IMG/VR virus record: IMGVR_UViG_3300049182_000044
Coordinates: 128,001-192,000 of that record
Direction: 5' to 3' (one strand)
Length of the DNA: 64,000 nucleotides
Source: a virus
Taxonomy: Duplodnaviria; Caudoviricetes
In this document: in pieces, positions 23,655 through 34,805 of the stretch
How positions within the stretch are numbered: the first letter of the stretch is position 1
Layout: every line of letters starts with the position of its first letter
Notes under the pieces: model-generated
What the model was told of the DNA's origin: nothing
What the model saw: only the letters and a program-made list of their open reading frames with translations
The model's database searches: none
Position numbers and translations under genes: made by a program

Positions 23655-24407
23655 TTATTCAGCACCATCCAAGTACGGAATATACCGAGGACGCCTGACA
23701 ATCAAGATGTTGCGAGGGTACTCTGTGCGAATATCGTGGAATGATTTGCCATAACCGGGCTGCACGATCTTTGATTTCGTACTGTACTTTTCAACGTGTC
23801 CAAACCAGCGACTCGGATCGCACCCAGGCGTTTGAATGCAGATCTTTCGATCAGTGAGAACACTACCACTGTTGTACGTAGCTGCACCGAACGCAAGATG
23901 TTCGTAATCACTGGCAACCGGGAATCGAACTGCATGATAAGACATCTTGCTCTTGATTACGCCTGCTCTTATCTGAAGCTCTGCATCGAATCGGTTTTCC
24001 CATGTCCACTTCTGCTTCAAGACCGGATCGAGCTTCGTCAAGTCTTTCCACACGTTGAAACGTTCTGTCCCATCCTTGTTGTAGGCGATGGTTGTCTGCC
24101 CCAAGCCGAAGCCGTATTCACGGGATGTCTTCAACTCCGCCCGCGATGACCAGCATTTTTTATGCTTCAAGCTGATGCAGGTTTCTTGCTCGATCTTCGC
24201 TCCCATGAAGGAACGCAAAGGCAGGTCCGGCCACAGTTGGTCTAAGGTACGACGCAAGACCGGAATGAGTGGAACAGCGTTCGGAGGGAGCTCCGGGAGT
24301 TTTAAGCCAGGCGTGTTGATCTCCGGCTTTAGGTTGGCCTCTTGTCCATTCGCGACCAGCGCCATCGCAAATAGAAGAGCGCCTAGACTTACTCTAAGCG
24401 CTTTCAT
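23655..24407 (-). CDS. Lytic transglycosylase (SLT-like endolysin) with N-terminal signal/SAR sequence
   Basis: Catalytic EQET motif, GLGQ motif, AATYNSG motif; hydrophobic N-terminus; four Cys. Confidence 0.75.
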   Translation of the reverse strand: MKALRVSLGALLFAMALVANGQEANLKPEINTPGLKLPELPPNAVPLIPVLRRTLDQLWPDLPLRSFMGAKIEQETCISLKHKKCWSSRAELKTSREYGFGLGQTTIAYNKDGTERFNVWKDLTKLDPVLKQKWTWENRFDAELQIRAGVIKSKMSYHAVRFPVASDYEHLAFGAATYNSGSVLTDRKICIQTPGCDPSRWFGHVEKYSTKSKIVQPGYGKSFHDIRTEYPRNILIVRRPRYIPYLDGAE

Positions 24408-24410
24408 GAC

Positions 24411-24764
24411 CTACCCCCGAACAAAGAACTGAGCTGCAACGACAATGCAAGTACAGATCACAACGGCGACGGCACAGAACACCATTGCAGCAGCCGTGTT
24501 GCGATGATCTTTCGCTTGCTCGTACAACTCTTTCATGTCGATGTAGTTGAACAGACAGTACTTGCGGGTGACGTGCGCGATCAAGGCAATTGCCAGGAAC
24601 ACACCCATCACATACATCATTGTCTGCAACGCACCGTAGTCAGGGCTGAACAACAGCGCGATCATGCCGACCATGAACGACAGACGAAACACCTCGTTCA
24701 GCGTGTAGAAGCGGCCGAGCAGAGCGGTGATTGGTGCGAACAGACGGTTGATAAACTTAATCAT
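24411..24764 (-). CDS. Holin-like membrane protein
   Basis: 117 aa with about 3 hydrophobic helices, directly upstream of the transglycosylase. Confidence 0.55.
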   Translation of the reverse strand: MIKFINRLFAPITALLGRFYTLNEVFRLSFMVGMIALLFSPDYGALQTMMYVMGVFLAIALIAHVTRKYCLFNYIDMKELYEQAKDHRNTAAAMVFCAVAVVICTCIVVAAQFFVRG

Positions 24765-24783
24765 TTTGGAACTCCTTTTTCAG

Positions 24784-25797
24784 TTAAAAGTATTTATGTC
24801 CTGGGCCGAAGCCGTATGGATCGTAGTAGGCCGTATAGTACGTCCTGTTGTAGGCAGAAACGTGTCCAGATGCTACAACCTCGTAGAGCGCAGAACCTTC
24901 GTTCGACAACAGGATGTAGTGAATTCCAGTCTTAGTATCCCGATAAACTGCGTGCTTGCCTTCACCAAAGCCTGCCCACGTAGTCATCGCCGCATTTGTG
25001 GGATAGATTGCATTGGTCTTTGGATGAATAGTGTTATCCCAACCGAAGTCAGTGCCGATCCATCTACGCGGTGAAGACTTGCCCTTATTGGGACCGTCTT
25101 GGATTATGGCTGTGCCGTTGTTCGGAACTGGCTCTGAGAGAAATTCTTTGAAAAAACCTTTAGCCATCCAGCCAAGAGTGCCTGGCCCACCCCAGTTAAA
25201 TTTCCAGCCGATACCTGTCGGGCCTTCTACGATAGGAACGTAGCCGCAATCTACGCTATTCACTTCGATGGCTTGGTTATAGGATCCACCTGTGCCGTTT
25301 GCATACCTACCCATCTTTGTTGTACCGGAACAGTACGTAGATAGCAAGGTACCTGCAGCCGGTGGTGCCGTGTAGCCGCAGTCAAGACTGTTGTACTCGA
25401 TGGCTTGGTTATAGGATCCACCTGTGCCGTTAGCGTACGTACCCATCTTGGTCGTGCCCTGGCAATAGGTATCGAGCAAAGTGCCAGCTGCAGGTGGGGG
25501 AACGTAACCGCATTCAGTGCTATTGCTTTGAATGATCGAGTTGTACGTTCCGCCTGTGCCGTTTGCATAGGTGCCCATCTTCGTAGTGCCGTCACAGTAC
25601 GTAGAGATCAACGTACCGTACGGCAATGGGCAAACAATATCGAGCCATCCAGTGTTGTCTGCGTTTCGGATCTTTGCGTTACCAGGAGTGGCTAGAATCC
25701 AGGTGCCGTCTGCTTTCTTGATCTTCCACCCGCCTTTGCAGAACACATCCACCCAGGCAGTATTTGCTGCGTTGCGTATTTTAGGAACATTTGCCAC
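24784..25797 (-). CDS. Fibre tip/adhesin with three 44-aa Cys-containing tandem repeats
   Basis: GTL(I/L)xTYCxGTTKMGxYANGTGGxYNxxIxxNSxxCGY x3; KIRNA.NT.W N-terminal repeats. Confidence 0.65.
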   Translation of the reverse strand: MANVPKIRNAANTAWVDVFCKGGWKIKKADGTWILATPGNAKIRNADNTGWLDIVCPLPYGTLISTYCDGTTKMGTYANGTGGTYNSIIQSNSTECGYVPPPAAGTLLDTYCQGTTKMGTYANGTGGSYNQAIEYNSLDCGYTAPPAAGTLLSTYCSGTTKMGRYANGTGGSYNQAIEVNSVDCGYVPIVEGPTGIGWKFNWGGPGTLGWMAKGFFKEFLSEPVPNNGTAIIQDGPNKGKSSPRRWIGTDFGWDNTIHPKTNAIYPTNAAMTTWAGFGEGKHAVYRDTKTGIHYILLSNEGSALYEVVASGHVSAYNRTYYTAYYDPYGFGPGHKYF

Positions 25798-25806
25798 AAT
25801 AGCTCC

Positions 25807-26763
25807 TTAAGCATTAGGGTTGATCCAGATGCCATACGCTCCGATAGCGGAGCCTGGGTCAGTAGATTGAATGCGAATGTTCACGGAGCCTGCGGGACCT
25901 TGGGGACCTTGTGGGCCAGTTGGACCTGCCGGACCTTGAGCACCAGTAGCGCCAGTTGGACCTGTCGGGCCAGTCAAGCCACGAGGGCCAGTTGGACCTG
26001 CTGGACCCGTCGCTCCGGTCGGACCTTGGGGACCTGCTGGGCCTGTATCACCTTGAGGACCCTGAGGACCTTGTGAGCCAGTTGGACCTTGAGGACCTGC
26101 CGGACCTTGGGGTCCCTGAGGACCTTGTTCTCCTGCAGGGCCTTGTGAGCCAGTTGGACCTTCGGGGCCTTGCACACCCTGAACACCTTGAGCGCCGTCA
26201 GTACCAGATGGACCTTGAGGACCTTGTGGTCCGCGTTCGCCAGTTGGGCCTATAGCACCACGAGGACCCGCTGGGCCAGTCGCACCTACAGGACCCGCTG
26301 GGCCGATAGGGCCTGCCGGACCTTGTAAGCCACGTGGACCAATATCGCCTTCAGGGCCTTGAGGACCAACTGGACCTTGAGGGCCAACTGGGCCTGCTGG
26401 ACCCGTTGATCCCGGAGGGCCTACATATCCCATACCGTTTGGTACAGTCTGAACGTATTGGAAAATCTCCTCGTATTGAGTAACTTCTTGCCATGTACCG
26501 TTGAAAGGTGCGCGTGGTACAGTTAGGTCCAGGGCGCGATACACCTTACGATAGAACGGCGAGCGCGAGTCCATCATCACCCAGATGCCGTTGATCGGCA
26601 CAACCAAACCACTCGGCTCAGTAATGGATGCGATGACGAAGTACTCTACGCTAGAAATCGGGTGATTGATCTTGAACACCACCGGATTGTATTCATCGAG
26701 GTTGCGGATATCAGACAGGTATTGAATGCTATCTACGAAATCCGTAAGAGTAAAATTGGACAT
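25807..26763 (-). CDS. Collagen-like triple-helix fibre protein
   Basis: About 60 uninterrupted Gly-X-Y triplets (counted by eye); likely start MSNF at 26763. Confidence 0.85.
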
Positions 26764-26840
26764 ACAAGCCTCTTTTGATTGTCTTTGCACATACCACAAA
26801 TTAACATAAACGTGTTGTGCCCAGGCCAACAACGACAAAA

Positions 26841-26879: not shown

Positions 26880-27245
26880 TTACTGAATAGTCTGCGCTGG
26901 AATCAGATTGAGTTCCGCAAGAATCGACTTCACGCGTTCCTTGAATACTTCATCCGGATTGGGTGAAACTTTCGGAACATGGGTAGCGGTTCCAGTCATC
27001 GCGGTGAGCTCTTCGGGAACGTACTGATTAACGATGTCAACCAGTGGTACATCGACTACCTCAAGCTTGGTCCACTCACGAACTGGTGCGGCGTTTTCGA
27101 TGGTGGATTGCAGTTGGGCGGGATCAGCCGGAAGCAGCATGTTCAGGCTAATAGGATCTTTCCCTTCGCAGGTGTATTGAACCACGAAGGACTTCTGGCG
27201 TAGGTTAACGCTTTCAATTTTCCAGCTATATGTGATAGAAGACAT
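26880..27245 (-). CDS. Hypothetical fibre-associated protein
   Basis: Likely start MSSITYSWKI at 27245, 1 nt after the panD-like stop, with an AAGGA RBS. Confidence 0.55.
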   Translation of the reverse strand: MSSITYSWKIESVNLRQKSFVVQYTCEGKDPISLNMLLPADPAQLQSTIENAAPVREWTKLEVVDVPLVDIVNQYVPEELTAMTGTATHVPKVSPNPDEVFKERVKSILAELNLIPAQTIQ

Positions 27246-27246
27246 T

Positions 27247-27624
27247 TTAGTTTCCTTCAATTACGTGATGCGTTTCAGTTTTCAGCACGTTGTTTGATTC
27301 ATCAACGTACACCACAGTGTGAGTCAGTCCAGCAATTTCATCCGGCGTCACATGCTCAAGTCGATTGATGACCACTTTGTCACCGGCACAGAACAAACGA
27401 GCAGGAGGCCCGTTCAATGTAACCGCACCAGGAGCTCCTGGGATAATGTAGGTCTCCCAATGATTACCGTTCGCCAAGTTGTTCACATGAACAAACTCAT
27501 AAGGCAGAAGTCCCGCAGCTTTGATAAGCTCGGGACAGAGACTGATCGAACCCTTGTAGTTCAAGTTCGCATCAGTCACTGTTGCCCTATGAATCTTCGC
27601 TGTAATGAAGATTCGTTGCTTCAT
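27247..27624 (-). CDS. panD: Aspartate 1-decarboxylase (PanD)-family pyruvoyl enzyme, divergent
   Basis: AKIHRATVTDANLNYKG|SI autoprocessing site, AAGL.P.E, NG..xETY, NG..A..GD.V.I motifs align with E. coli PanD (alignment from memory). Confidence 0.85.
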   Translation of the reverse strand: MKQRIFITAKIHRATVTDANLNYKGSISLCPELIKAAGLLPYEFVHVNNLANGNHWETYIIPGAPGAVTLNGPPARLFCAGDKVVINRLEHVTPDEIAGLTHTVVYVDESNNVLKTETHHVIEGN

Positions 27625-29264
27625 TTAATTGCCTTCACAATCTCTGGGCGTACTGCATCCCAGTCCAAGGTGGTATAGTCAAAGCCGTACTGGTTCACAC
27701 CCGCACCGACAACGTAACCGTTGACGATGATTGGGCTACCCGAAGTAAGTGGCAGGTAGAGCTGCGTGTCTTGCGCTGCACTGACTTGAACGATCTCTTG
27801 CGAAGTCCACCCGATGAGGTTCGCCCACTTGGTGTTTTCAACCCCACTACGAATCGAGTCATTGTCGAACAGACCGCCGATGACACCTTCTTCTGCTTCT
27901 GCTTTCCATTTCTCAGGATTAGCAGACCACCACCATTGAGTATCGTCGCGCTTCGTCCACATGGCGTGTTCTTCTGACCAGAACATGTCTGTGCCTACGA
28001 AGTTCAACATGCGACGGCCACCCAAGATAGGCATGTGATAGTCAACCACAGGTGTCGGCCCATTGACGCCCATTACCATATCGCCGACCTTAATGGTTTC
28101 AATGTTACTCCACGTGCCATCACCCATGAGTACCTGAGAGCCTGCTGGGAAGCAAGTGTTATCGGGCGGGTAGTATTGTGCAGGAATTTCTGTGCGAACG
28201 ATGTACGGAGGTTTCGGAGAAGCCGTAGCATTTGAAAGTGCGGGACCATCTGTTCCGAGTAACGTAGTCGACAGCAAAAGCACCCGTGCATAACCATCGG
28301 CACCTTTAGAACCCGCAGAGCCCCAAGCAGATTCAGAATCACCTTCCCATCTTGCGAACGTCCACCAAATTTGCGGATAGTTGTAGCGAGTTGCCAGAGA
28401 AGTCCAAGTAGGATCAGCCCAATAGCCACCGCTGCCGCCTGCGCCACCGAAACCATCACTCGCGCCACCTGCACCCGGTGCGATATTCTCACCAGTGTAG
28501 TACTGATTTGTAGCGAGGTCATACATTCCATACTGGCTAATCAGATACGGAGCTGTTTCAACCTTACCCAGTAGGTAAGCGCCACCTGTGTAGGACTCCC
28601 ACATATGCGCCCACTTTCCAGATTCGCCAGCAGGATAACCAGCACCACCTAAACCACCCGGAGATTCTGCCGCTTTTTTATCCTGTTCACCACCTGTACC
28701 ACCTGCGCCACCGCGACCACCATCTGCAGATGCGATGCCAACGATTGAAGTTGCACCACCATCAGCACCGGGATTTCCGTTACTGCCATGACGACCAGTA
28801 CCATCACCGCTAGGAACTTCATACCAGCTAACAGAAGCACCACCTGCGCCACCTGCACCAACAATAATTGTTAAAGTTGATCCCGGTGTTACATCAATCA
28901 CGCGATAAATAGTTTGACCTTTACCGCCTGCGCCACCGCCGCCGCCTGCAGTGCCGTTTGTCCAATCGTATTCACCGGCGCCGCCACCTGAACCGCCACC
29001 GCCCGAGCCACCGCGCAACGCGATTGCAGCTTTAGTTATGCCCGCAGGAATTGGAAGTGAATATGTACCGGGAACCGTGTACTCGAAATCGAGAGCCGGA
29101 TTGCCGTCAGCTGGCTTGCCGTAGAAGTCTGACAACAGCACAGTACCGCTCGGCTTCTGACACAGCGCGCGAGCGTCAGTGTCATTAAATGTTAAGGGGC
29201 CACCGCGTCCCAGCTGATCCAAGATCATCTGAAACGTCAGCGCCCCGCTTGTTGGGAGCGCCAT
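27621..29264 (-). CDS. Gly-rich distal adhesin (gp38-like) with a C-terminal Hint domain
   Basis: MALPTSG..SDFYGK N-terminus and polyglycine loops. CFPAGSQVLMGDG..IETIKVGD.V (Cys371) and SEEH are Hint motifs. Confidence 0.75.
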   Translation of the reverse strand: MALPTSGALTFQMILDQLGRGGPLTFNDTDARALCQKPSGTVLLSDFYGKPADGNPALDFEYTVPGTYSLPIPAGITKAAIALRGGSGGGGSGGGAGEYDWTNGTAGGGGGAGGKGQTIYRVIDVTPGSTLTIIVGAGGAGGASVSWYEVPSGDGTGRHGSNGNPGADGGATSIVGIASADGGRGGAGGTGGEQDKKAAESPGGLGGAGYPAGESGKWAHMWESYTGGAYLLGKVETAPYLISQYGMYDLATNQYYTGENIAPGAGGASDGFGGAGGSGGYWADPTWTSLATRYNYPQIWWTFARWEGDSESAWGSAGSKGADGYARVLLLSTTLLGTDGPALSNATASPKPPYIVRTEIPAQYYPPDNTCFPAGSQVLMGDGTWSNIETIKVGDMVMGVNGPTPVVDYHMPILGGRRMLNFVGTDMFWSEEHAMWTKRDDTQWWWSANPEKWKAEAEEGVIGGLFDNDSIRSGVENTKWANLIGWTSQEIVQVSAAQDTQLYLPLTSGSPIIVNGYVVGAGVNQYGFDYTTLDWDAVRPEIVKAIK

Positions 29265-29266
29265 TC

Positions 29267-29953
29267 TTACTCTCCTTTCAGTGTAGCAACTTCTTTGCGA
29301 AGGATATGGATTTCCTCGTGCAGTTCTTTGAAGGCCTCAACAAACAGGCCTGCAAGGTTGCCGTAGGCAAGGCTCAGCTTGCCATCTGCATCTTCCGACA
29401 CAGCTTCCGGCAACACCTTCTGAACGTGCTGCGCGATCAAGCCTGTCTGACGCAAGCCTTCAACGTCGGTACGATCATAGGTGCAGCCGAGCAATTCAGT
29501 AATGCGCGCCATAGCATTGTCGATGCGAACGATGTTGGTCTTAACGCGCTCGTCCGACAAGCCGGAGATGTTGCCATTGACGGTCATACCGTTGGTCGGT
29601 TGTCCGAAAGTGATCTGACGCTGGCCGCCAATCGACACGCCGATAACACCGTCTGCCACCCAGTGGAAGCCCGTGTCTTTGACCAGGTCTTCGTCGAACG
29701 TGATGCCAGGTTGAGCTGCAGTTCCAGATGCAACCAGCAAGCGACCCGTCATCGTGTCACCAGCCTTGTTCACCGGAACATATCCGAGAGCGTCAGTGAT
29801 CATGTCAGCCGTAATGCTGGTAATGCCATCTGTTCCAACTTGAACGCTCTTTGTCGAGCCGTCACTTAGAGTGAACGTCGCGGTCGATCCGGAGACGGTA
29901 ACATCTTTGATGACCGGCGTCGCCAGCATACGTAAGTCAAGTTTCGTAGTCAT
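29267..29953 (-). CDS. Tail fibre with peptidase S74 intramolecular chaperone
   Basis: SDERVKTNI, GLIAQHVQKVLPEAV, Y..L....VEAFKEL coiled-coil end; NKAGDTMTG module. Confidence 0.85.
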   Translation of the reverse strand: MTTKLDLRMLATPVIKDVTVSGSTATFTLSDGSTKSVQVGTDGITSITADMITDALGYVPVNKAGDTMTGRLLVASGTAAQPGITFDEDLVKDTGFHWVADGVIGVSIGGQRQITFGQPTNGMTVNGNISGLSDERVKTNIVRIDNAMARITELLGCTYDRTDVEGLRQTGLIAQHVQKVLPEAVSEDADGKLSLAYGNLAGLFVEAFKELHEEIHILRKEVATLKGE

Positions 29954-29968: not shown

Positions 29969-30430
29969 TTAGCTTGGGTTGAATTCGTCTCGGAACGCAT
30001 GAGCTACGTATGCGGGACCGTCTTGAGTGTTGTTCGGTACGAAGACCATTTCTTTCGGATAGGTTTTCTTCACAGCTGCGATTTGTTCAGCCATAGCTAG
30101 AGCTTCTGACGTAAGGAGCTCCGGCTTAGCAGTCAAAAGCTTCCACAAAACATCCAGCTGATCGCCGATGCTTGGGTATTCAGGCTTTCGAGCTACTGTA
30201 TGCGTAACCACAACTTCATCAGTCGTTTCGCTTACAGGAGCCTCACCTAGATGAACGCTCTCGCCCATGTTGATTACCTGTGCGTCAACCATTTCAGGGT
30301 TGCAGCGTCCTGCACGGATGACATTGCCGTTCTCGCCTGTCACGTAGTACGCTACTGAACGATCACTAGCTGCACCTTGATTTTCTTCAGAAGGCCCTTT
30401 CGGGCCCCCTACGTTTGCTGTCGTAGACAT
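29969..30430 (-). CDS. Putative tail fibre assembly/chaperone protein
   Basis: RKPEYPSIGDQLD..W...IAAVKKTYPK motif typical of fibre-adjacent phage genes; likely start 30430. Confidence 0.5.
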   Translation of the reverse strand: MSTTANVGGPKGPSEENQGAASDRSVAYYVTGENGNVIRAGRCNPEMVDAQVINMGESVHLGEAPVSETTDEVVVTHTVARKPEYPSIGDQLDVLWKLLTAKPELLTSEALAMAEQIAAVKKTYPKEMVFVPNNTQDGPAYVAHAFRDEFNPS

Positions 30431-30444
30431 TGTTTCTCCTAACA

Positions 30445-33400
30445 TTAACGACGAGTTTCAAGCATAGCCATGGCCATGTTACGCACCGAATAGTTCTCGT
30501 ATGTGAAGGTCGAAGTGTTTGTACCTTTCGACATGCACAGCGATAACGTGTACGTACCAGCTGGAACGCCTGTGAACACACCCATAGCATTCATCGACAG
30601 GGTGTAGCCTGGTCCGACGTTGTTATTCATCACACCAGTCACATACGTTCCATTTGGGCCAGACAGTTTGAACGCTGAAACGCACTCTGTGAAGTTCGTA
30701 TTGTGCTTCCAGTACGTTCCCCAGTAGTACATGTCAAAGTTCGACGACGTGCTAGCTTTCGTACCGCAACCAGACCAGCTCGCCCATACCATGATTGGCT
30801 GCGTACCCGTTACGGTAACAACCATTTGCAGGACTGGGTTTGAAGTTGGGTCCGGCATATCCAAAACAGGATTGTTCGGACCTGAGAGCGTAATGTTCGT
30901 CTGCGTCTTGACCGGCTGCGTCGCTACTTGTGCTTGAGTCACCGCGTTGTTGTCAATGTTCAAGGTCTTAACAGCGAGATTATCAATCGCACCGTTGTAG
31001 GCCGTGATCGAACGCGCTGCCATTGCCAAAGCCGTGACTGATCCGTCCACGAGCATGTTCCCATCGACCTTCATGTCGAGGATACGCCACGCAGTGCCAT
31101 CCCAGAAACGAGTCTGAGAGAAGCTGTTGCTGTACTGCATGACGGTATCACCGATGATCGGGCCGCTTTCAACTTGAGCTGCGGTCGTCGCAGAAGCATC
31201 ATTCCAGTTAGTACGACCTGAAATGTAGAAGTTACGCGAACCACGCTTACCATCTGAACCCGGCGAGCCTGCACCGGAAGAGCCTTTGATCTTCGTCAGT
31301 GAGAAGCGACGCACCAGAGTAGGCATACCCGCTTTCGACGCGGTGAGAGTAACGTCACCAGTATCGTTATTGCTGGAGAAGCCTGTGACGCTGACCGATG
31401 CCCCACTCAACGTAGAGGTCACTCCCGCGCTATCAGTTTTAGTGATAGTCCAGGTATTGGTCGTGTCAGTCGAGCCTTCAAACACACGAATCGTCGAACG
31501 AGCACCGGTGAAGTTCGTCACCACACCAGCCGTGCTAGCTGCAAACACGAATGCCTCGTTGTCCAACGCCGCGAAGACTGCGTTGCGGCCATCGATACCG
31601 TTCGTACCATTCAAACCCGTCTTCGATTTGGCCACTGAGAAGCGCTTCATCAACGCTGGGTACTCGGCACGCGACGCCATGATGTCCACGTAGCCGTTGT
31701 CAACTGACATTGCGGTAATGCGAACCGTATTGGCACTGATCGTGCTAGTGACACCTGCCGAGCTAGAACGAGTGAACGTCCACAGATCGGTTACGTCATT
31801 CGCACCTTCATACACCCGCATTTGGGTCATCGCCGAAGCGAAGTCACCAACCACACCGTTAATATCAGCAGCAAGCGTATGCGATTCGTTGGTCAACAAC
31901 GTAGTCAAGCCATTAGAACCTTCACGCAGCTTGACAATCGTGACGTAGTCCAAGTACGTGGTGCCACCAGTGGTGATAGCTGCACGAATTGTAACCGCAT
32001 CGCTGGTCATGTCCTCATACAGCAGCGTAGCAACGTTTCCGTTAGTAGCCAGCACAGCCGCACCATCATAGGCCACGAATGAAGCATCCCCCGGGATGTT
32101 TTGCGGGTTTACCGTGAACGTGATCTGTTCAGGTGTCGAAGTGCCGTCTGCGTTGATACGGAAGATCTGCGACGTAGCGTTCAGGAACAAGGCCTTAGCG
32201 TCTTCCCCTGTGCCACCTGGATCGGTAGGATCAATTCCACCACCTTCATTTGCTCCACCGCCTGGGCCACCTGTACCGCCAAACGACAAGGACATGATTT
32301 CGTCACGAGTCATGTAGCGTTGCGAAAGCTCTTCGCGCGTAATCAGACGTGTCTTCGACTTACCTGTGAGGAATACGATTGCGGTTGCTTTGACCCCATC
32401 TTCCTTGTCGATGCCGGGGATGATGAACTTGTACTGGTTGGTATTCGACACGTTGTAGTCGGTACCCATCTGCATCACAGTGTTGCCAAACAACAGCGTG
32501 TTGTTCTCATTACCCACATCGAGAACCGGAACCGCATCGTAGAACGCATGGCGATAGTCCGACTGCCCACGCTTCAAGTTGAATTGCGAGAAGATAATCG
32601 CGTTGCAGTACTCCTTACGCGGCTTCGAGATGTAACGCCATACTTCCACCTTAGAGCCAACTGGATGCTGCTCTGCAAACACAATCGTGCCGGACGAAGC
32701 GTTGTACTGAGAAGCGTGAACGTACAGGCCACCTACTGAAATAATGTGTGCCTGTACGGAAGCACCTGCAGGAACTTCCGTGAGCGTGTACGTCTGCGTA
32801 TTAGCGGCAATCGTGAACTGAGTACGATCACAGATCAACTCCTCACCGTCGTCTTCAACAGCCTCGAAAGCAACAATGTCGATTTCGTAGCCATCTGGTA
32901 CAAACTGAGGCAGCGTAACAGTGCCGTTTGTCTTGTTCACCACGTTCAGCATCGGGTCTTGCAGCTGACCGCCCACGAACACCATTGCAAAGTCAGGACT
33001 CAAACCTGCGCTGTAGGTACGCGTAGCACCATTACCTACGAAGGTCGAGCGAGCCGAAATGATCTTGTTCGGGTACATATAGACGCCAGCAGGATCGACC
33101 CACTGAGGACCCGTATTCAGACCCAACGTTTCGCGTGCTTCGAGTTCAAGCGCTTCATTGACGAACGCGACTACTACGATCTTCGCACCGGCAGGAACCG
33201 TAACAGAGCTGCGAATCTCGATCTCGTTGACCGACACTTCGTACTTGTCTTTGGCGAGAAGCACGCCGTCAATCGTGACCAACGTGTTGCGCTTTTCAAC
33301 GTACAGAACGTCATTGAGCACAATCGGCTCAACCGGAGACGCTGCTACAACTTCCTTGCGTAGCGCACGGGTCGATGCACCAAGCTCTTCAAAGTTCACG

Positions 33401-34791
33401 TACTGAACGATGCTGACATTACCGATAGGTGCCGCTTCGGTGAACGTAATGGAGGTACCTGCGAAGATGTACCTGTTCGGGGAAACGAGCAAGCCATCAA
33501 CGAACACCATGATGTAGAGCGTGCTGTCTGGCACAACTGATGTGAAGAATTCCCAGTCTGATCCGTCAGCCACATACTCAGTCGTAGCAAACGTCAAGAA
33601 TGAACCGTTACTAGGAACACTACGGAAGCCTACGAACTCAACTGGAACTCCAGCTGCAGGAGCCGCACCCAACAGTGTAAGTTCACCATCAAGCGCCATG
33701 CTGTATTCGTTGCGGTTCAACAGCTTGCCGCCGACGAACACCATGTAGCGATCGCCTTGCTCAAACACGCTGCTTGGAATCGAAGCCGACAGCCGGAACG
33801 TCAAGCGTGCACCGTTACCTGTGAAGCTAGCCTTAACTGGAATGTAGTCAGCCGAAACGTTCTGATCTTCTTCACCGACACGGCGCCACGTATTGCGTCC
33901 GACACCGAGAACGTAGTTACGATCAATGTCAGACGTACGCGACGGCAACTGCTGGCGAGTTGCACGCCAGATGTTGATGATCGACTGCTTGGTGAGCGTG
34001 CTGAAGTTCTTTTCGAGGATCGTGAAGTAGTTCGTCTCTTTATCGAAACGTACACGACGCGATTCACCCGCGCCAGGGCCAGACACGATTTGCACGATCA
34101 CTACTTCCTGATCGTTCAGCCAGAAGCCACCTGTCTTCTCAACGTCGAGTATAAACTCATCTACTGCAGGAACATCTTCTACCTCGCCGTGATAGGTGAG
34201 ATCATAACCAAGGAAGCCCCAGTTGAGCGAGCCTGCACCATAACGAACAGCCAGGCTACCCGAAGTCAATATCAAGTTGTTTTCAGGATTGGTGGATTGA
34301 TCTTGCACGACCACCGCATTGGTGTACGACGACTGAGGCTTAACCAGTGTACGAACGCTAGCAGCAGAAGCCAGTGAAGCATTTGTTCCAACTGTGACAT
34401 TGATAACGTCACCCAGGCGAGCTGCGGTCACGTAAATGTACAGCTTCATGCCGTTGCCAACTTCTTTGACATACGGTACACGGAACGTTCCGTGTGCGAA
34501 CAGTTCCCCGCTCTCGAGGTACAGACCTACTTCGGTCAACGTCCAAGTACCACCAGCGATAGGCTCTTTAGACGGAATGAGAAGTGAGACCTTGACAGTG
34601 GACGCACTGACTACTTCGATAGACTCAACTTCACCCGCGTACACTGGATCTTGTGTCAGAGCGATGTCTCCAACGCTCAGCGTAACATCTGGTGCTTCAG
34701 TGACTGCGAATCGCGTCATGTTGACAAGGAATCCGCCAGCCTCAGCATTAGTGATTGCACTAAGCCCAAGGTCGGTTACTAAAATCGCCAT
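30445..34791 (-). CDS. Long proximal tail fibre/baseplate-attached protein
   Basis: N-terminal T..G....LTEVGLY...GELFA collar-type domain, repeated MVFVGG..Q/L modules, two LxNExxxxxAxxxGxV repeats; likely start MAILVT at 34791. Confidence 0.7.
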   Translation of the reverse strand: MAILVTDLGLSAITNAEAGGFLVNMTRFAVTEAPDVTLSVGDIALTQDPVYAGEVESIEVVSASTVKVSLLIPSKEPIAGGTWTLTEVGLYLESGELFAHGTFRVPYVKEVGNGMKLYIYVTAARLGDVINVTVGTNASLASAASVRTLVKPQSSYTNAVVVQDQSTNPENNLILTSGSLAVRYGAGSLNWGFLGYDLTYHGEVEDVPAVDEFILDVEKTGGFWLNDQEVVIVQIVSGPGAGESRRVRFDKETNYFTILEKNFSTLTKQSIINIWRATRQQLPSRTSDIDRNYVLGVGRNTWRRVGEEDQNVSADYIPVKASFTGNGARLTFRLSASIPSSVFEQGDRYMVFVGGKLLNRNEYSMALDGELTLLGAAPAAGVPVEFVGFRSVPSNGSFLTFATTEYVADGSDWEFFTSVVPDSTLYIMVFVDGLLVSPNRYIFAGTSITFTEAAPIGNVSIVQYVNFEELGASTRALRKEVVAASPVEPIVLNDVLYVEKRNTLVTIDGVLLAKDKYEVSVNEIEIRSSVTVPAGAKIVVVAFVNEALELEARETLGLNTGPQWVDPAGVYMYPNKIISARSTFVGNGATRTYSAGLSPDFAMVFVGGQLQDPMLNVVNKTNGTVTLPQFVPDGYEIDIVAFEAVEDDGEELICDRTQFTIAANTQTYTLTEVPAGASVQAHIISVGGLYVHASQYNASSGTIVFAEQHPVGSKVEVWRYISKPRKEYCNAIIFSQFNLKRGQSDYRHAFYDAVPVLDVGNENNTLLFGNTVMQMGTDYNVSNTNQYKFIIPGIDKEDGVKATAIVFLTGKSKTRLITREELSQRYMTRDEIMSLSFGGTGGPGGGANEGGGIDPTDPGGTGEDAKALFLNATSQIFRINADGTSTPEQITFTVNPQNIPGDASFVAYDGAAVLATNGNVATLLYEDMTSDAVTIRAAITTGGTTYLDYVTIVKLREGSNGLTTLLTNESHTLAADINGVVGDFASAMTQMRVYEGANDVTDLWTFTRSSSAGVTSTISANTVRITAMSVDNGYVDIMASRAEYPALMKRFSVAKSKTGLNGTNGIDGRNAVFAALDNEAFVFAASTAGVVTNFTGARSTIRVFEGSTDTTNTWTITKTDSAGVTSTLSGASVSVTGFSSNNDTGDVTLTASKAGMPTLVRRFSLTKIKGSSGAGSPGSDGKRGSRNFYISGRTNWNDASATTAAQVESGPIIGDTVMQYSNSFSQTRFWDGTAWRILDMKVDGNMLVDGSVTALAMAARSITAYNGAIDNLAVKTLNIDNNAVTQAQVATQPVKTQTNITLSGPNNPVLDMPDPTSNPVLQMVVTVTGTQPIMVWASWSGCGTKASTSSNFDMYYWGTYWKHNTNFTECVSAFKLSGPNGTYVTGVMNNNVGPGYTLSMNAMGVFTGVPAGTYTLSLCMSKGTNTSTFTYENYSVRNMAMAMLETRR

Positions 34792-34805
34792 TATAGACTC
34801 CAATC

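What the first reader, a model, noticed from the sequence alone, without database searches (positions are those of the whole stretch)
26880..29953. Three adjacent, coupled self-cleaving proteins: S74 fibre, Hint-capped adhesin, PanD-like pyruvoyl enzyme (candidate adhesin-tip modification system)
Seen in sequence: 29267-29953 (S74, SDERVK) is 2 nt from 27621-29264 (Gly-rich adhesin + Hint, Cys371). That gene overlaps 27247-27624 (PanD-like, YKG|S) by ATGA, and a small gene starts 1 nt later. Established: S74 domains autocleave via a Ser-Lys dyad; Hint domains form a thioester at Cys1 that can be resolved by an external nucleophile (Hedgehog cholesteroylation); PanD self-cleaves at Gly-Ser to make a pyruvoyl cofactor and decarboxylates an amino acid to an amine. 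Inference: a metabolic gene placed inside a fibre operon and coupled to a Hint adhesin may supply the amine that is ligated to the adhesin's new C-terminus (Thr370), chemically decorating the receptor-binding tip. The simpler alternative is an unrelated CoA-pathway auxiliary gene.
Basis: partly seen in the sequence, partly recalled or inferred. Interest (0 to 1): 0.8.

Follow-up and report, generated by a model that had tools for sequence, protein, structure and literature searches.

The report
Self-trimming phage fibre tip with decarboxylase
A 281-kb uncultured phage encodes a short tail fibre and a glycine-rich tip protein that each carry a self-removing end domain, followed directly by an unusual PanD-like decarboxylase; that decarboxylase type turns up in phage genomes almost only where the same Hedgehog-like end domain is present, so the tip protein may be chemically finished rather than just cut.

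Summary
Three tightly coupled minus-strand genes encode an S74-capped short fibre, a glycine-rich tip protein with a C-terminal Hint domain, and a PanD-like pyruvoyl proenzyme.

- **Hint cap.** The AF2 model has pLDDT 95. The best fold matches are BIL, Hedgehog and intein domains. Cys1 and S-x-x-H are present but the terminal His-Asn is not, so only N-terminal cleavage or ligation is possible. It caps more than 50 protein clusters with variable N-termini.
- **S74-then-Hint gene order.** This order recurs in at least 7 other phage lineages.
- **PanD-like protein.** It is not a canonical aspartate decarboxylase. Arg54, Ala74 and Ala75 are replaced ("HW" subfamily). It scores below the NCBIfam panD cut-off. 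Bacteria that carry it can also have a normal PanD.
- **Linkage.** Most PanD-HW genes lie among DNA-metabolism genes, and most Hint caps have no PanD nearby. However, all 4 IMG/VR phage records with PanD-HW that are at least 85% complete also carry the Hint cap, against 0 of 23 complete controls (p = 6e-5). One 7.7-kb contig has the order Hint protein, p283, PanD-HW, SPASM radical-SAM enzyme in one operon.

A functional link is therefore likely (about 0.5). Amine capping of Thr370 is the leading mechanism but is untested. This scan had already noted the same Hint cap next to radical-SAM genes in another phage genome.

The parts
29267..29953 (-). Short fibre protein (228 aa) with a C-terminal S74 intramolecular-chaperone domain. 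The predicted autocleavage is before Ser133 (codon 29555-29557), with Lys138 as the dyad partner.
   Evidence: PF13884 51.2 bits; PHROG tail-fibre families; SDERVK seen in the translation.
28155..29264 (-). N-extein of the tip protein (residues 1-370). It has a conserved roughly 50-aa N-terminal attachment module followed by a glycine-rich (polyglycine/TNF-like) domain, and it ends ...PPDNT370.
   Evidence: AF2 pLDDT 82.6. Foldseek best hits are the Bxb1 tail tip 9d93_Q, the cyanophage Pam3 fibre 7ypx and the ALK glycine-rich domain. Gly_rich_2 is weak. Homologs exist with and without the Hint cap.
27621..28154 (-). C-terminal Hint cap (residues 371-547). Cys371 is Cys1 (codon 28152-28154). 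Block B is SEEH. There is a Trp-rich insert, the fold ends ...IVNGYVVGA without His-Asn, and a roughly 25-aa conserved helical tail follows.
   Evidence: Alignment of 52 homologs with Cys1 invariant; AF2 pLDDT 95; Foldseek hits to BIL2 6y75, BIL 2lwy, Hedgehog 1at0 and inteins; profile against PDB inteins, E 4e-9.
27247..27624 (-). PanD-like pyruvoyl proenzyme of the 'HW' subfamily (125 aa). The Gly25|Ser26 processing site is at codon 27547-27549. Lys10, His12, Tyr23, Thr58 and Tyr59 are kept. Arg54 is replaced by His55, and Ala74-Ala75 by Pro73-Pro74.
   Evidence: PF02261 116.6 bits. TIGR00223 100.3 bits against a cut-off of 106. Alignments to solved PanDs. Subfamily statistics.
26880..27245 (-). 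121-aa protein of unknown function. Its start is 1 nt after the PanD stop.
   Evidence: Junction read. No Pfam, PHROG or NCBIfam hit. Only a weak structural lead to a tail-assembly-chaperone cluster.
29969..30445 (-). 158-aa protein between the large fibre and the S74 fibre. It may be a fibre-assembly factor.
   Evidence: Only PHROGs of unknown function match its C-terminal 50 residues.
30445..34803 (-). Large tail fibre (1452 aa) directly upstream of the module.
   Evidence: Phage_tail_fib N-terminal domain and PHROG tail hits. In the closest complete relative the glycine-rich domain is fused to the end of this fibre.
23655..26838 (-). Downstream context: a collagen-like fibre (25807-26838), a 337-aa three-repeat protein (24784-25797), a holin-like protein (24411-24764) and an endolysin-like protein (23655-24407).
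   Evidence: In contig L196 the S74-Hint pair is followed directly by membrane proteins and the endolysin homolog.

Best explanation
The region is a tail-fibre-tip module.

Shown or directly read:
- The short fibre carries an S74 chaperone domain that should cut itself off at Ser133.
- The next gene encodes a glycine-rich tip protein of the kind seen at the Bxb1 tail tip and in the Pam3 fibre. It is made as a precursor with a C-terminal Hint domain.
- That Hint has the Cys1 nucleophile and the S-x-x-H block but no terminal His-Asn. It can therefore only shift the Thr370-Cys371 peptide bond to a thioester, which an outside nucleophile must then resolve.
- The PanD-like gene, whose start overlaps the adhesin stop, keeps the Gly-Ser processing site and the catalytic Lys, His, Thr and Tyr residues. 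It has lost the aspartate-specifying Arg54 and the Ala74-Ala75 pair.

Inferred:
- PanD-HW is a real accessory partner of Hint-capped fibre proteins, because in phages the two are found together far more often than chance allows.
- It most likely decarboxylates an amino acid other than aspartate to a small primary amine.
- That amine most likely attacks the thioester, so that the mature tip protein ends in an amide-linked adduct at Thr370 rather than a free carboxylate.

In phages without PanD-HW, water or another partner would resolve the thioester. That partner is often encoded beside a SPASM radical-SAM enzyme. My odds are about 0.5-0.6 for a functional link of any kind and about 0.3 for amine capping specifically.
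For: - **Coupling.** The genes are translationally coupled.
- **Hint fold and motifs.**
- **Cap position.** The Hint domain always lies at the extreme C-terminus of variable N-termini in 52 clusters.
- **Conserved gene order.** An S74-capped gene lies directly upstream of a Hint-capped gene in the window, L196, Providencia phage PSTNGR1, G014, G024/G026, L201, L211 and L212.
- **PanD-HW is non-canonical.**
  - 111 of the 112 nearest relatives with the subfamily's Trp55 (of 120 examined) lack Arg54.
  - 75 of 80 GTDB genome hits are canonical Arg.
  - Its TIGR00223 score is 100.3 against a cut-off of 106, whereas a canonical PanD scores 157.5.
  - Two bacterial MAGs carry both a canonical PanD and an HW paralog.
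  - PMC3314653 lists Arg54, Ala74 and Ala75 as strictly conserved and Arg54 as the specificity residue.
  - The phage has no panC.
- **Association.**
  - Only 15 IMG/VR records hold PanD-HW.
  - 5 of the 14 tested carry the Hint cap, including all that are at least 85% complete (G014, G085, G024); the window's own record makes 4 of 4.
  - Achromobacter phage 2-1 has both genes.
  - A 206-kb JGI contig has both.
  - Controls: Hint cap in 0 of 50 and PanD in 0 of 50.
  - Fisher exact tests give p = 5.7e-5 and p = 2.6e-4.
- **Second operonic case.** L233 has the order Hint protein, p283, PanD-HW, SPASM rSAM, with overlapping or near-abutting genes.
Against: - **Hint caps without PanD-HW.** These are Achromobacter phage JWF, Providencia phage PSTNGR1, the complete 279-kb record G018, three roughly 45-kb proviruses, and the closest full-length homolog L196, where the pair is followed directly by lysis genes.
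- **PanD-HW usually sits elsewhere.** In most genomes with both genes it lies 8-25 kb or more away, among RNR/ThyX, SbcC, DNA polymerase or FolE2 genes.
- **PanD-HW in bacteria.** It also occurs in bacterial chromosomes where no Hint cap was found, so it has a function of its own.
- **Divergent L233 copy.** The L233 copy has Tyr22 replaced by Ser and Tyr58 replaced by Phe. From my own knowledge Tyr58 is the proton donor, so that copy may not be an active decarboxylase.
- **Statistical caveats.** The lineages counted are few and not fully independent. Controls were chosen by S74 or tail similarity, not matched for host or habitat.
- **No direct evidence.** Nothing here shows cleavage, a thioester, or an amine product.
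Confidence: 0.5

Rival explanations
1. The Hint cap is only a self-removing folding or assembly cap, the functional twin of the S74 domain, and its thioester is hydrolysed by water. PanD-HW is a separate, mobile auxiliary gene that happened to land in this late operon. The co-occurrence reflects a shared accessory gene pool among phages of related hosts.
For: - PanD-HW neighbours differ in almost every genome and are mostly DNA or nucleotide-metabolism genes.
- Many Hint-capped proteins have no PanD.
- The closest complete relative of this phage has neither gene.
- PanD-HW also exists in bacterial chromosomes.
Against: - Both genes are very rare in IMG/VR (15 and 18 records of 2.9 million contigs), yet they coincide in at least 5 different phage types of 80-281 kb.
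- There are two independent operonic placements, the window and L233.
- Hint was found in 0 of 50 controls.
Confidence: 0.33
2. The gene is an ordinary aspartate 1-decarboxylase that boosts host beta-alanine and coenzyme A synthesis during infection.
For: There is a strong Pfam Asp_decarbox match, and the processing site and the catalytic Lys, His, Thr and Tyr residues are kept.
Against: - Arg54, Ala74 and Ala75 are replaced across the whole subfamily.
- The protein scores below the panD equivalog cut-off.
- Bacterial MAGs keep a canonical PanD beside the HW paralog.
- The phage has no panC.
- In this phage the gene is expressed from a late structural operon.
Confidence: 0.07
3. The Hint thioester is resolved by a protein nucleophile, for example a lysine of the trimmed S74 fibre. 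This would weld the tip protein covalently to its fibre, as BIL domains do in the Tetrahymena BUBL system. PanD-HW plays no part.
For: - The best structural match of the cap is the BUBL BIL2 domain.
- The S74-then-Hint gene order is conserved in many lineages.
- The conjugation chemistry of BUBL is recalled from my own knowledge and was not tested here.
Against: - The fold match is generic (15% identity).
- No partner lysine or interface was identified.
- This reading does not explain the PanD-HW association.
Confidence: 0.07

Closest known systems
Hedgehog C-terminal autoprocessing domain (HhC, PDB 1at0)
   Same: It has the Hint fold, a Cys1 thioester and a T/S-x-x-H block. It has no C-terminal Asn, so the thioester is resolved by an external nucleophile that ends up on the new C-terminus. 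There is extra sequence after the Hint core (alignment).
   Different: There is no sterol-recognition region. Instead the cap has a Trp-rich insert and a 25-aa tail. The host protein is a phage fibre-tip protein. The nucleophile is unknown. Sequence identity is about 15%.
Bacterial intein-like (BIL) domains, including BIL2 of the Tetrahymena BUBL locus (6y75) and the Clostridium thermocellum BIL (2lwy)
   Same: These are the best Foldseek matches (E 7e-7 and 2e-5). They are non-splicing or poorly splicing Hint domains in variable extracellular proteins.
   Different: BIL domains usually lie inside proteins and keep a C-terminal Asn (type A) or other C-terminal chemistry. Here the domain is strictly C-terminal and ends ...YVVGA.
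S74 intramolecular chaperone domain of endosialidase and tail-fibre proteins (PF13884)
   Same: It is a self-removing C-terminal cap on a phage fibre protein. It is present in the gene directly upstream and is probably the functional analogue of the Hint cap.
   Different: It has a different fold and different chemistry: a Ser-Lys dyad carries out hydrolysis, and no activated acyl intermediate is available for ligation.
Glycine-rich tail-tip and fibre proteins: Bxb1 tail tip chain Q (9d93), cyanophage Pam3 fibre (7ypx), and gp38-type adhesins of T2/S16-like phages
   Same: The N-extein shares the glycine-rich fold. One homolog with the same Hint cap carries Pfam GP38 (P0013). By analogy the tip protein would sit on a fibre whose C-terminus has been trimmed; this part is from my own knowledge of T2 gp37/gp38.
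   Different: None of these known proteins is described with a Hint cap. The receptor is unknown.
Aspartate 1-decarboxylase PanD (E. coli, M. tuberculosis; TIGR00223)
   Same: It shares the double-psi beta-barrel family, the Gly-Ser self-processing site that gives a pyruvoyl group, and Lys9, His11, Tyr22, Thr57 and Tyr58.
   Different: Arg54 is replaced by His, the next residue by Trp, and Ala74-Ala75 by Pro-Pro. The protein scores below the equivalog cut-off. In bacteria it is a paralog beside canonical PanD. The substrate is unknown.
Radical SAM/SPASM peptide maturases (QhpD, PapB, CcpM types) of RiPP systems
   Same: In many relatives, though not in this window, such an enzyme lies 0-2 genes after the Hint-capped gene.
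   Different: This phage genome has no radical-SAM gene. No substrate peptide was established here.

Membership tests
Peptidase S74 / intramolecular chaperone domain | Pfam PF13884 match above the gathering score | tested here: met
   51.2 bits against a cut-off of 22, residues 133-185.
Peptidase S74 / intramolecular chaperone domain | Ser-Lys catalytic dyad (S-x4-K) at the start of the domain, located at the C-terminus of a fibre protein | tested here: met
   S133-D-E-R-V-K138 in the translation. PHROG tail-fibre C-termini align to residues 110-228.
Peptidase S74 / intramolecular chaperone domain | Trimer-dependent autocleavage | not testable with these tools
   Needs expression and mass analysis.
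Hint superfamily, cleavage-only (Hedgehog/BIL-like) type | Hint fold | tested here: met
   AF2 pLDDT 95, pTM 0.90. Foldseek probability 1.00 to BIL2, Prp8 intein, C. thermocellum BIL, Hedgehog HhC and the DnaB intein.
Hint superfamily, cleavage-only (Hedgehog/BIL-like) type | Cys/Ser nucleophile at position 1 and a T/S-x-x-H block B | tested here: met
   Cys1, Ser and His are invariant in 51 homologs (C13, S72, H75 of alignment A2).
Hint superfamily, cleavage-only (Hedgehog/BIL-like) type | Pfam Hint-family model above the gathering score | tested here: not met
   Hom_end_hint scores 29.2 against 32.1, and Hint 22.9 against 29.7. Only block A aligns. A profile of the family hits PDB inteins at E 4e-9.
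Intein (protein splicing) | C-terminal His-Asn followed by a Cys/Ser/Thr of a C-extein | tested here: not met
   The domain ends ...IVNGYVVGAGVN plus a short tail. There is no C-extein in any of the 52 homologs.
Aspartate 1-decarboxylase PanD (TIGR00223 equivalog) | Family-level homology (PF02261) | tested here: met
   116.6 bits against a cut-off of 25.
Aspartate 1-decarboxylase PanD (TIGR00223 equivalog) | Score above the curated equivalog cut-off | tested here: not met
   100.3 bits against a cut-off of 106. A canonical PanD from a MAG scores 157.5.
Aspartate 1-decarboxylase PanD (TIGR00223 equivalog) | Gly24-Ser25 processing site and Lys9, His11, Tyr22, Thr57, Tyr58 | tested here: met
   K10, H12, Y23, G25-S26, T58 and Y59.
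Aspartate 1-decarboxylase PanD (TIGR00223 equivalog) | Substrate-pocket residues Arg54, Ala74 and Ala75, listed as strictly conserved in PMC3314653 | tested here: not met
   The window protein has His55 and Pro73-Pro74. The same loss is seen in 111 of the 112 nearest relatives that carry the subfamily's Trp55 (of 120 examined).
Aspartate 1-decarboxylase PanD (TIGR00223 equivalog) | Pantothenate-pathway context | tested here: not met
   There is no panC in the phage genome. In two MAGs the HW form is a second copy beside a canonical PanD.
Glycine-rich tail-tip / fibre domain (Gly_rich_2, gp38-like) | Pfam match above the gathering score | tested here: not met
   Gly_rich_2 scores 18.7 against a cut-off of 24.3.
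Glycine-rich tail-tip / fibre domain (Gly_rich_2, gp38-like) | Fold shared with solved virion tip or fibre proteins | tested here: met
   Bxb1 tail tip 9d93_Q at E 3e-6 (23% identity) and Pam3 fibre 7ypx at E 3e-5. TM-scores are modest (0.31-0.48).

The most novel reading that the evidence does not exclude
Phage fibre-tip proteins are finished by Hedgehog-like chemistry. The Hint cap activates Thr370 as a thioester. A dedicated phage pyruvoyl decarboxylase of a new PanD subfamily supplies a small amine that is ligated there, giving a chemically modified receptor-binding tip. Related phages add SPASM radical-SAM steps to the same cassette.
Probability: 0.3. Interest if true: 0.9.

Novelty: new variant of a known kind. 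Interest (0 to 1): 0.72.

Why it matters
Self-removing S74 caps on phage fibres are textbook. A Hedgehog/BIL-type Hint cap on receptor-binding tip proteins was not described in any paper that my searches found. Such a cap leaves an activated thioester, which opens the possibility of small-molecule or cross-link modification of the part of the virion that touches the host.

The recurrent company of peptide-maturase radical-SAM enzymes and of a PanD paralog with a rebuilt substrate pocket suggests a post-translational maturation pathway for phage adhesins. If real, it would add a new layer to host-range determination. It would also give a natural, enzyme-free C-terminal ligation handle, and it would assign a function to an uncharacterised PanD subfamily that is also present in bacteria.

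Tried and rejected
1. **PanD-like as DpdL.** I suspected that the PanD-like gene was DpdL, the proposed 7-carboxy-7-deazaguanine decarboxylase, because some homologs sit near QueC/D/E or FolE2. The paper (PMC10516641) shows that DpdL is a QueD paralog. A pyruvoyl enzyme also needs an alpha-amino acid as substrate. Rejected.
2. **Complex prediction.** Complex prediction on the Hint cap plus PanD-like gave no answer (score 0.00). This is not evidence either way.
3. **Near-identical DNA.** No match in GenBank phages.
4. **Single-protein pattern scans of IMG/VR.** These found only 2 PanD loci and 0 adhesin loci. The alignment-based scans were needed.
5. **My earlier reading.** Up to about I read the evidence as showing no linkage. 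That rested on adjacency alone and was overturned by the whole-record HMM searches.
6. **Proteins between the Hint and rSAM genes.** I looked for similarity among p240, p283 and p300, and between them and the window's p121, p158 and p337. There was none.
7. **Exosortase lead.** The 601-aa membrane protein upstream of the bacterial PanD-HW scored only 0.80 in the Atlas and had no Pfam or NCBIfam hit. It remains a lead only.
8. **Literature.** Searches for Hint-capped fibres and for phage PanD found nothing relevant.


Full report
**Setting.** The window is bases 128001-192000 of a single 281,566-bp IMG/VR virus record that CheckV rates as complete. It is a jumbo myophage. Its tail sheath is 45% identical to those of Pseudomonas phage PaBG and phage NCTB. 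Sheath, baseplate and fibre genes all run on the minus strand.

Downstream of a 1452-aa fibre the genes run in this order:
- a 158-aa protein
- the S74 protein
- the glycine-rich/Hint protein
- the PanD-like protein
- a 121-aa protein
- a collagen-like fibre
- a 337-aa repeat protein
- a holin-like protein
- an endolysin-like protein

**Observation.**
- The junctions are as described. The S74 gene ends TAA, followed by 2 nt and the adhesin ATG, with an AAAGGAG ribosome-binding site upstream. The adhesin stop and PanD start overlap as ATGA. The PanD gene ends TAA, followed by 1 nt and the next ATG.
- No convincing terminator or promoter separates these genes.

**The Hint cap.**
- Pfam sees only block A, below threshold.
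- More than 50 database clusters share residues 355-547 at 36-60% identity. The domain always lies at the extreme C-terminus, behind N-terminal parts of 124-720 residues.
- Cys1 and the Ser and His of an S-E-E-H block are invariant. The domain ends ...IVNGYVVGA with no His-Asn and no C-extein. A Trp-rich insert and a short tail are conserved.
- The AF2 model is very confident (pLDDT 95).
- Its best solved neighbours are the BIL2 domain of the Tetrahymena BUBL locus, the Prp8 intein, a Clostridium BIL domain and the Hedgehog autoprocessing domain.
- It is therefore a true Hint domain that can only perform the N-terminal acyl shift. The resulting thioester must be resolved by water or by another nucleophile.

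**The N-extein.**
- The AF2 model (pLDDT 82.6) matches the glycine-rich protein of the Bxb1 tail tip, the cyanophage Pam3 fibre and the ALK glycine-rich domain.
- Homologs of this part exist with and without the cap.
- In the closest complete relative (286 kb) the same domain type is fused to the end of the large fibre.
- One capped homolog carries Pfam GP38.
- 'Tip adhesin' is a fair name for this protein, but the receptor is unknown.

**A conserved S74-then-Hint pair.** An S74-capped gene lies directly upstream of a Hint-capped gene in all of the following:
- the window
- contig L196, which holds the closest full-length homolog and where lysis genes follow directly
- the T7-like Providencia phage PSTNGR1
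- G014
- G024 and G026
- L201, L211 and L212

This part of the finding is a real, recurrent two-gene unit.

**Radical-SAM company.** A SPASM-type radical-SAM enzyme follows the Hint-capped gene within 0-2 genes in about half of the Hint loci: 9 of 19 IMG/VR loci, Achromobacter phages JWF and 2-1, and three jumbo contigs. Its best partial matches are QhpD, PapB and CcpM maturases. This phage has no radical-SAM gene.

**The PanD-like protein.**
- It keeps the self-processing Gly-Ser site and Lys, His, Tyr, Thr and Tyr.
- It reads N-G-N-H-W-E-T-Y and L-N-G-P-P-A where canonical enzymes read N-G-x-R-[FL]-x-T-Y and L-N-G-A-A-A.
- PMC3314653 lists Arg54, Ala74 and Ala75 among the strictly conserved residues and names Arg54 as the specificity residue.
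- Of the 120 nearest database relatives, 112 carry the subfamily's Trp55, and 111 of those lack Arg54. By contrast 75 of 80 hits in species-representative bacterial genomes are canonical.
- The protein scores 100.3 bits on NCBIfam panD, under the cut-off of 106. A canonical PanD scores 157.5.
- Two bacterial MAGs carry both a canonical PanD and an HW paralog in housekeeping surroundings.
- An abundant bacterial cluster that is 66% identical to the phage protein sits in a chromosomal context.
- The phage has no panC.
- This is therefore a distinct PanD subfamily, probably with another substrate.

**Is PanD-HW linked to the Hint cap?**

By adjacency, the link is mostly absent.
- PanD-HW lies next to DNA polymerase in phage 2-1.
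- It lies between RNR and ThyX in G014 and a related contig.
- It lies next to an SbcC-like gene in G024.
- It lies near FolE2 in 60-kb and 206-kb contigs.
- It lies by PP-loop ATPases or QueC/D/E in two IMG/VR contigs.
- Many Hint caps have no PanD.

By genome, the picture reverses.
- An alignment-based scan of 2.9 million IMG/VR contigs found only 15 PanD-HW records and 18 Hint-cap records.
- 5 of the 14 PanD-HW records tested carry the cap. These include every record at least 85% complete (G014, G085, G024). With the window's own record that makes 4 of 4.
- All the negative records are fragments: at most 32% complete among these 14, and a 15th record, tested separately, is 58% complete.
- Phage 2-1 and a 206-kb JGI contig also carry both genes.
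- Among 50 control phage records, neither gene occurs; 23 of these are complete.
- Fisher exact tests give p = 5.7e-5 (4 of 4 against 0 of 23) and p = 2.6e-4 (5 of 14 against 0 of 50).
- The distances between the two genes are 0 kb (window), 0.9 kb (L233), 7.7 kb (G014), 14.6 kb (G024/G026), 25 kb (2-1/G085), and far apart in the 206-kb group.
- In L233 the order is a Tal-like protein, the Hint-capped protein, p283, PanD-HW and then the SPASM enzyme. The genes overlap or nearly abut.

Caveats on this association:
- The L233 copy has Ser and Phe in place of Tyr22 and Tyr58.
- The lineages are few.
- The controls are not habitat-matched.
- PanD-HW has a life of its own in bacteria.

**Reading.** The S74-Hint pair is a conserved fibre-tip unit with two different self-removing caps. 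PanD-HW is more likely than not a functional companion of the Hint-capped protein family (about 0.5-0.6). The simplest chemistry that joins the two is an amine product resolving the Thr370 thioester. I give that specific step about 0.3.

The main rival is a hydrolytic cap plus an unrelated mobile decarboxylase (about 0.33). An ordinary CoA-pathway role is unlikely (about 0.07).

No cleavage, thioester or enzyme activity has been shown. The complex prediction gave no answer and is not used as evidence.

**Earlier notes of this scan.**
- Other readers had already described this Hint domain as non-splicing. I agree, and I tested it here.
- On another phage genome the scan had noted the same cap beside RiPP-like radical-SAM genes. 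I saw that arrangement again here.
- The same genome also carries a 7-deazaguanine DNA-modification operon. I did not test that here.

Noticed in passing
L003 6512-8589; L007 11387-17778; L009, L011, L197, L198, L202, L203, L205, L206, L209-L211, L233: Hint-capped fibre genes are very often followed by a cassette. It holds a roughly 240-300-aa unknown protein and one to three radical SAM/SPASM peptide-maturase-type enzymes, and in the 174-206-kb phages also a 67-aa peptide. This looks like a RiPP-style maturation system attached to a virion protein.
   Followed up: partly
P0047, P0048, P0051, P0035, P0049, P0020 (residues just before Cys1): Several Hint-capped homologs carry (Cys-Asn)n or Cys-x-Cys runs immediately upstream of the Hint Cys1. 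These are possible substrates for the neighbouring thioether-forming SPASM enzymes. The window protein has no such run.
   Followed up: no
L243 7920-10119 (also L244, L245): The commonest PanD-HW cluster (66% identical to the phage protein, found on more than 160 contigs) is bacterial. It lies 25 nt after a 601-650-aa multi-pass membrane protein. That protein's only lead is a weak Atlas resemblance (0.80) to EpsI/exosortase-family proteins, and it has no Pfam or NCBIfam hit.
   Followed up: partly
G001 (L116, L194) and G003 (L119, L195): Two bacterial MAGs encode both a canonical PanD and an HW-type paralog (N-A-V-H-W-E-T-Y, L-N-G-C-P-A). In L116 the HW gene faces a 443-aa protein with faint ATP-grasp/RimK-like matches.
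   Followed up: partly
G014 = IMGVR_UViG_3300033475_001782, at 33.8 kb, 93.5 kb and 95.3 kb: One 109-kb record carries three Hint-capped genes, one of them with an in-frame TGA. Two of them are in tandem, followed by a second SPASM enzyme (L203).
   Followed up: no
window 24784-25797 (-): The 337-aa protein has three roughly 45-aa tandem repeats (G-T-L-L-x-T-Y-C-x-G-T-T-K-M-G-x-Y-A-N-G-T-G-G-S-Y-N ... C-G-Y). Each repeat has two cysteines. There is no family hit. A short match occurs downstream of collagen-like genes in relatives L027-L031.
   Followed up: no
window 29229-29264: The public gene call for the adhesin starts 12 codons downstream (535 aa). The ATG at 29264 has a strong AAAGGAG site and lies 2 nt after the S74 stop, so the 547-aa form is more likely.
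   Followed up: yes
L016 10686-15641: In the closest complete relative (286 kb, with terminal repeats) the glycine-rich tip domain is fused to the C-terminus of the 1651-aa fibre. It is not a separate capped gene. This illustrates domain shuffling at fibre tips.
   Followed up: partly
L001 9397-12107 (Achromobacter phage 2-1): The DNA polymerase next to panD is annotated as two overlapping CDS of 207 and 2517 nt. This could be a frameshift or a split gene at the site where panD is inserted relative to phage JWF.
   Followed up: no
L233 6359-6739: The PanD-HW copy inside the Hint/rSAM operon has Tyr22 replaced by Ser and Tyr58 replaced by Phe, but it keeps the Gly-Ser site. It may be processed yet be catalytically different.
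   Followed up: partly
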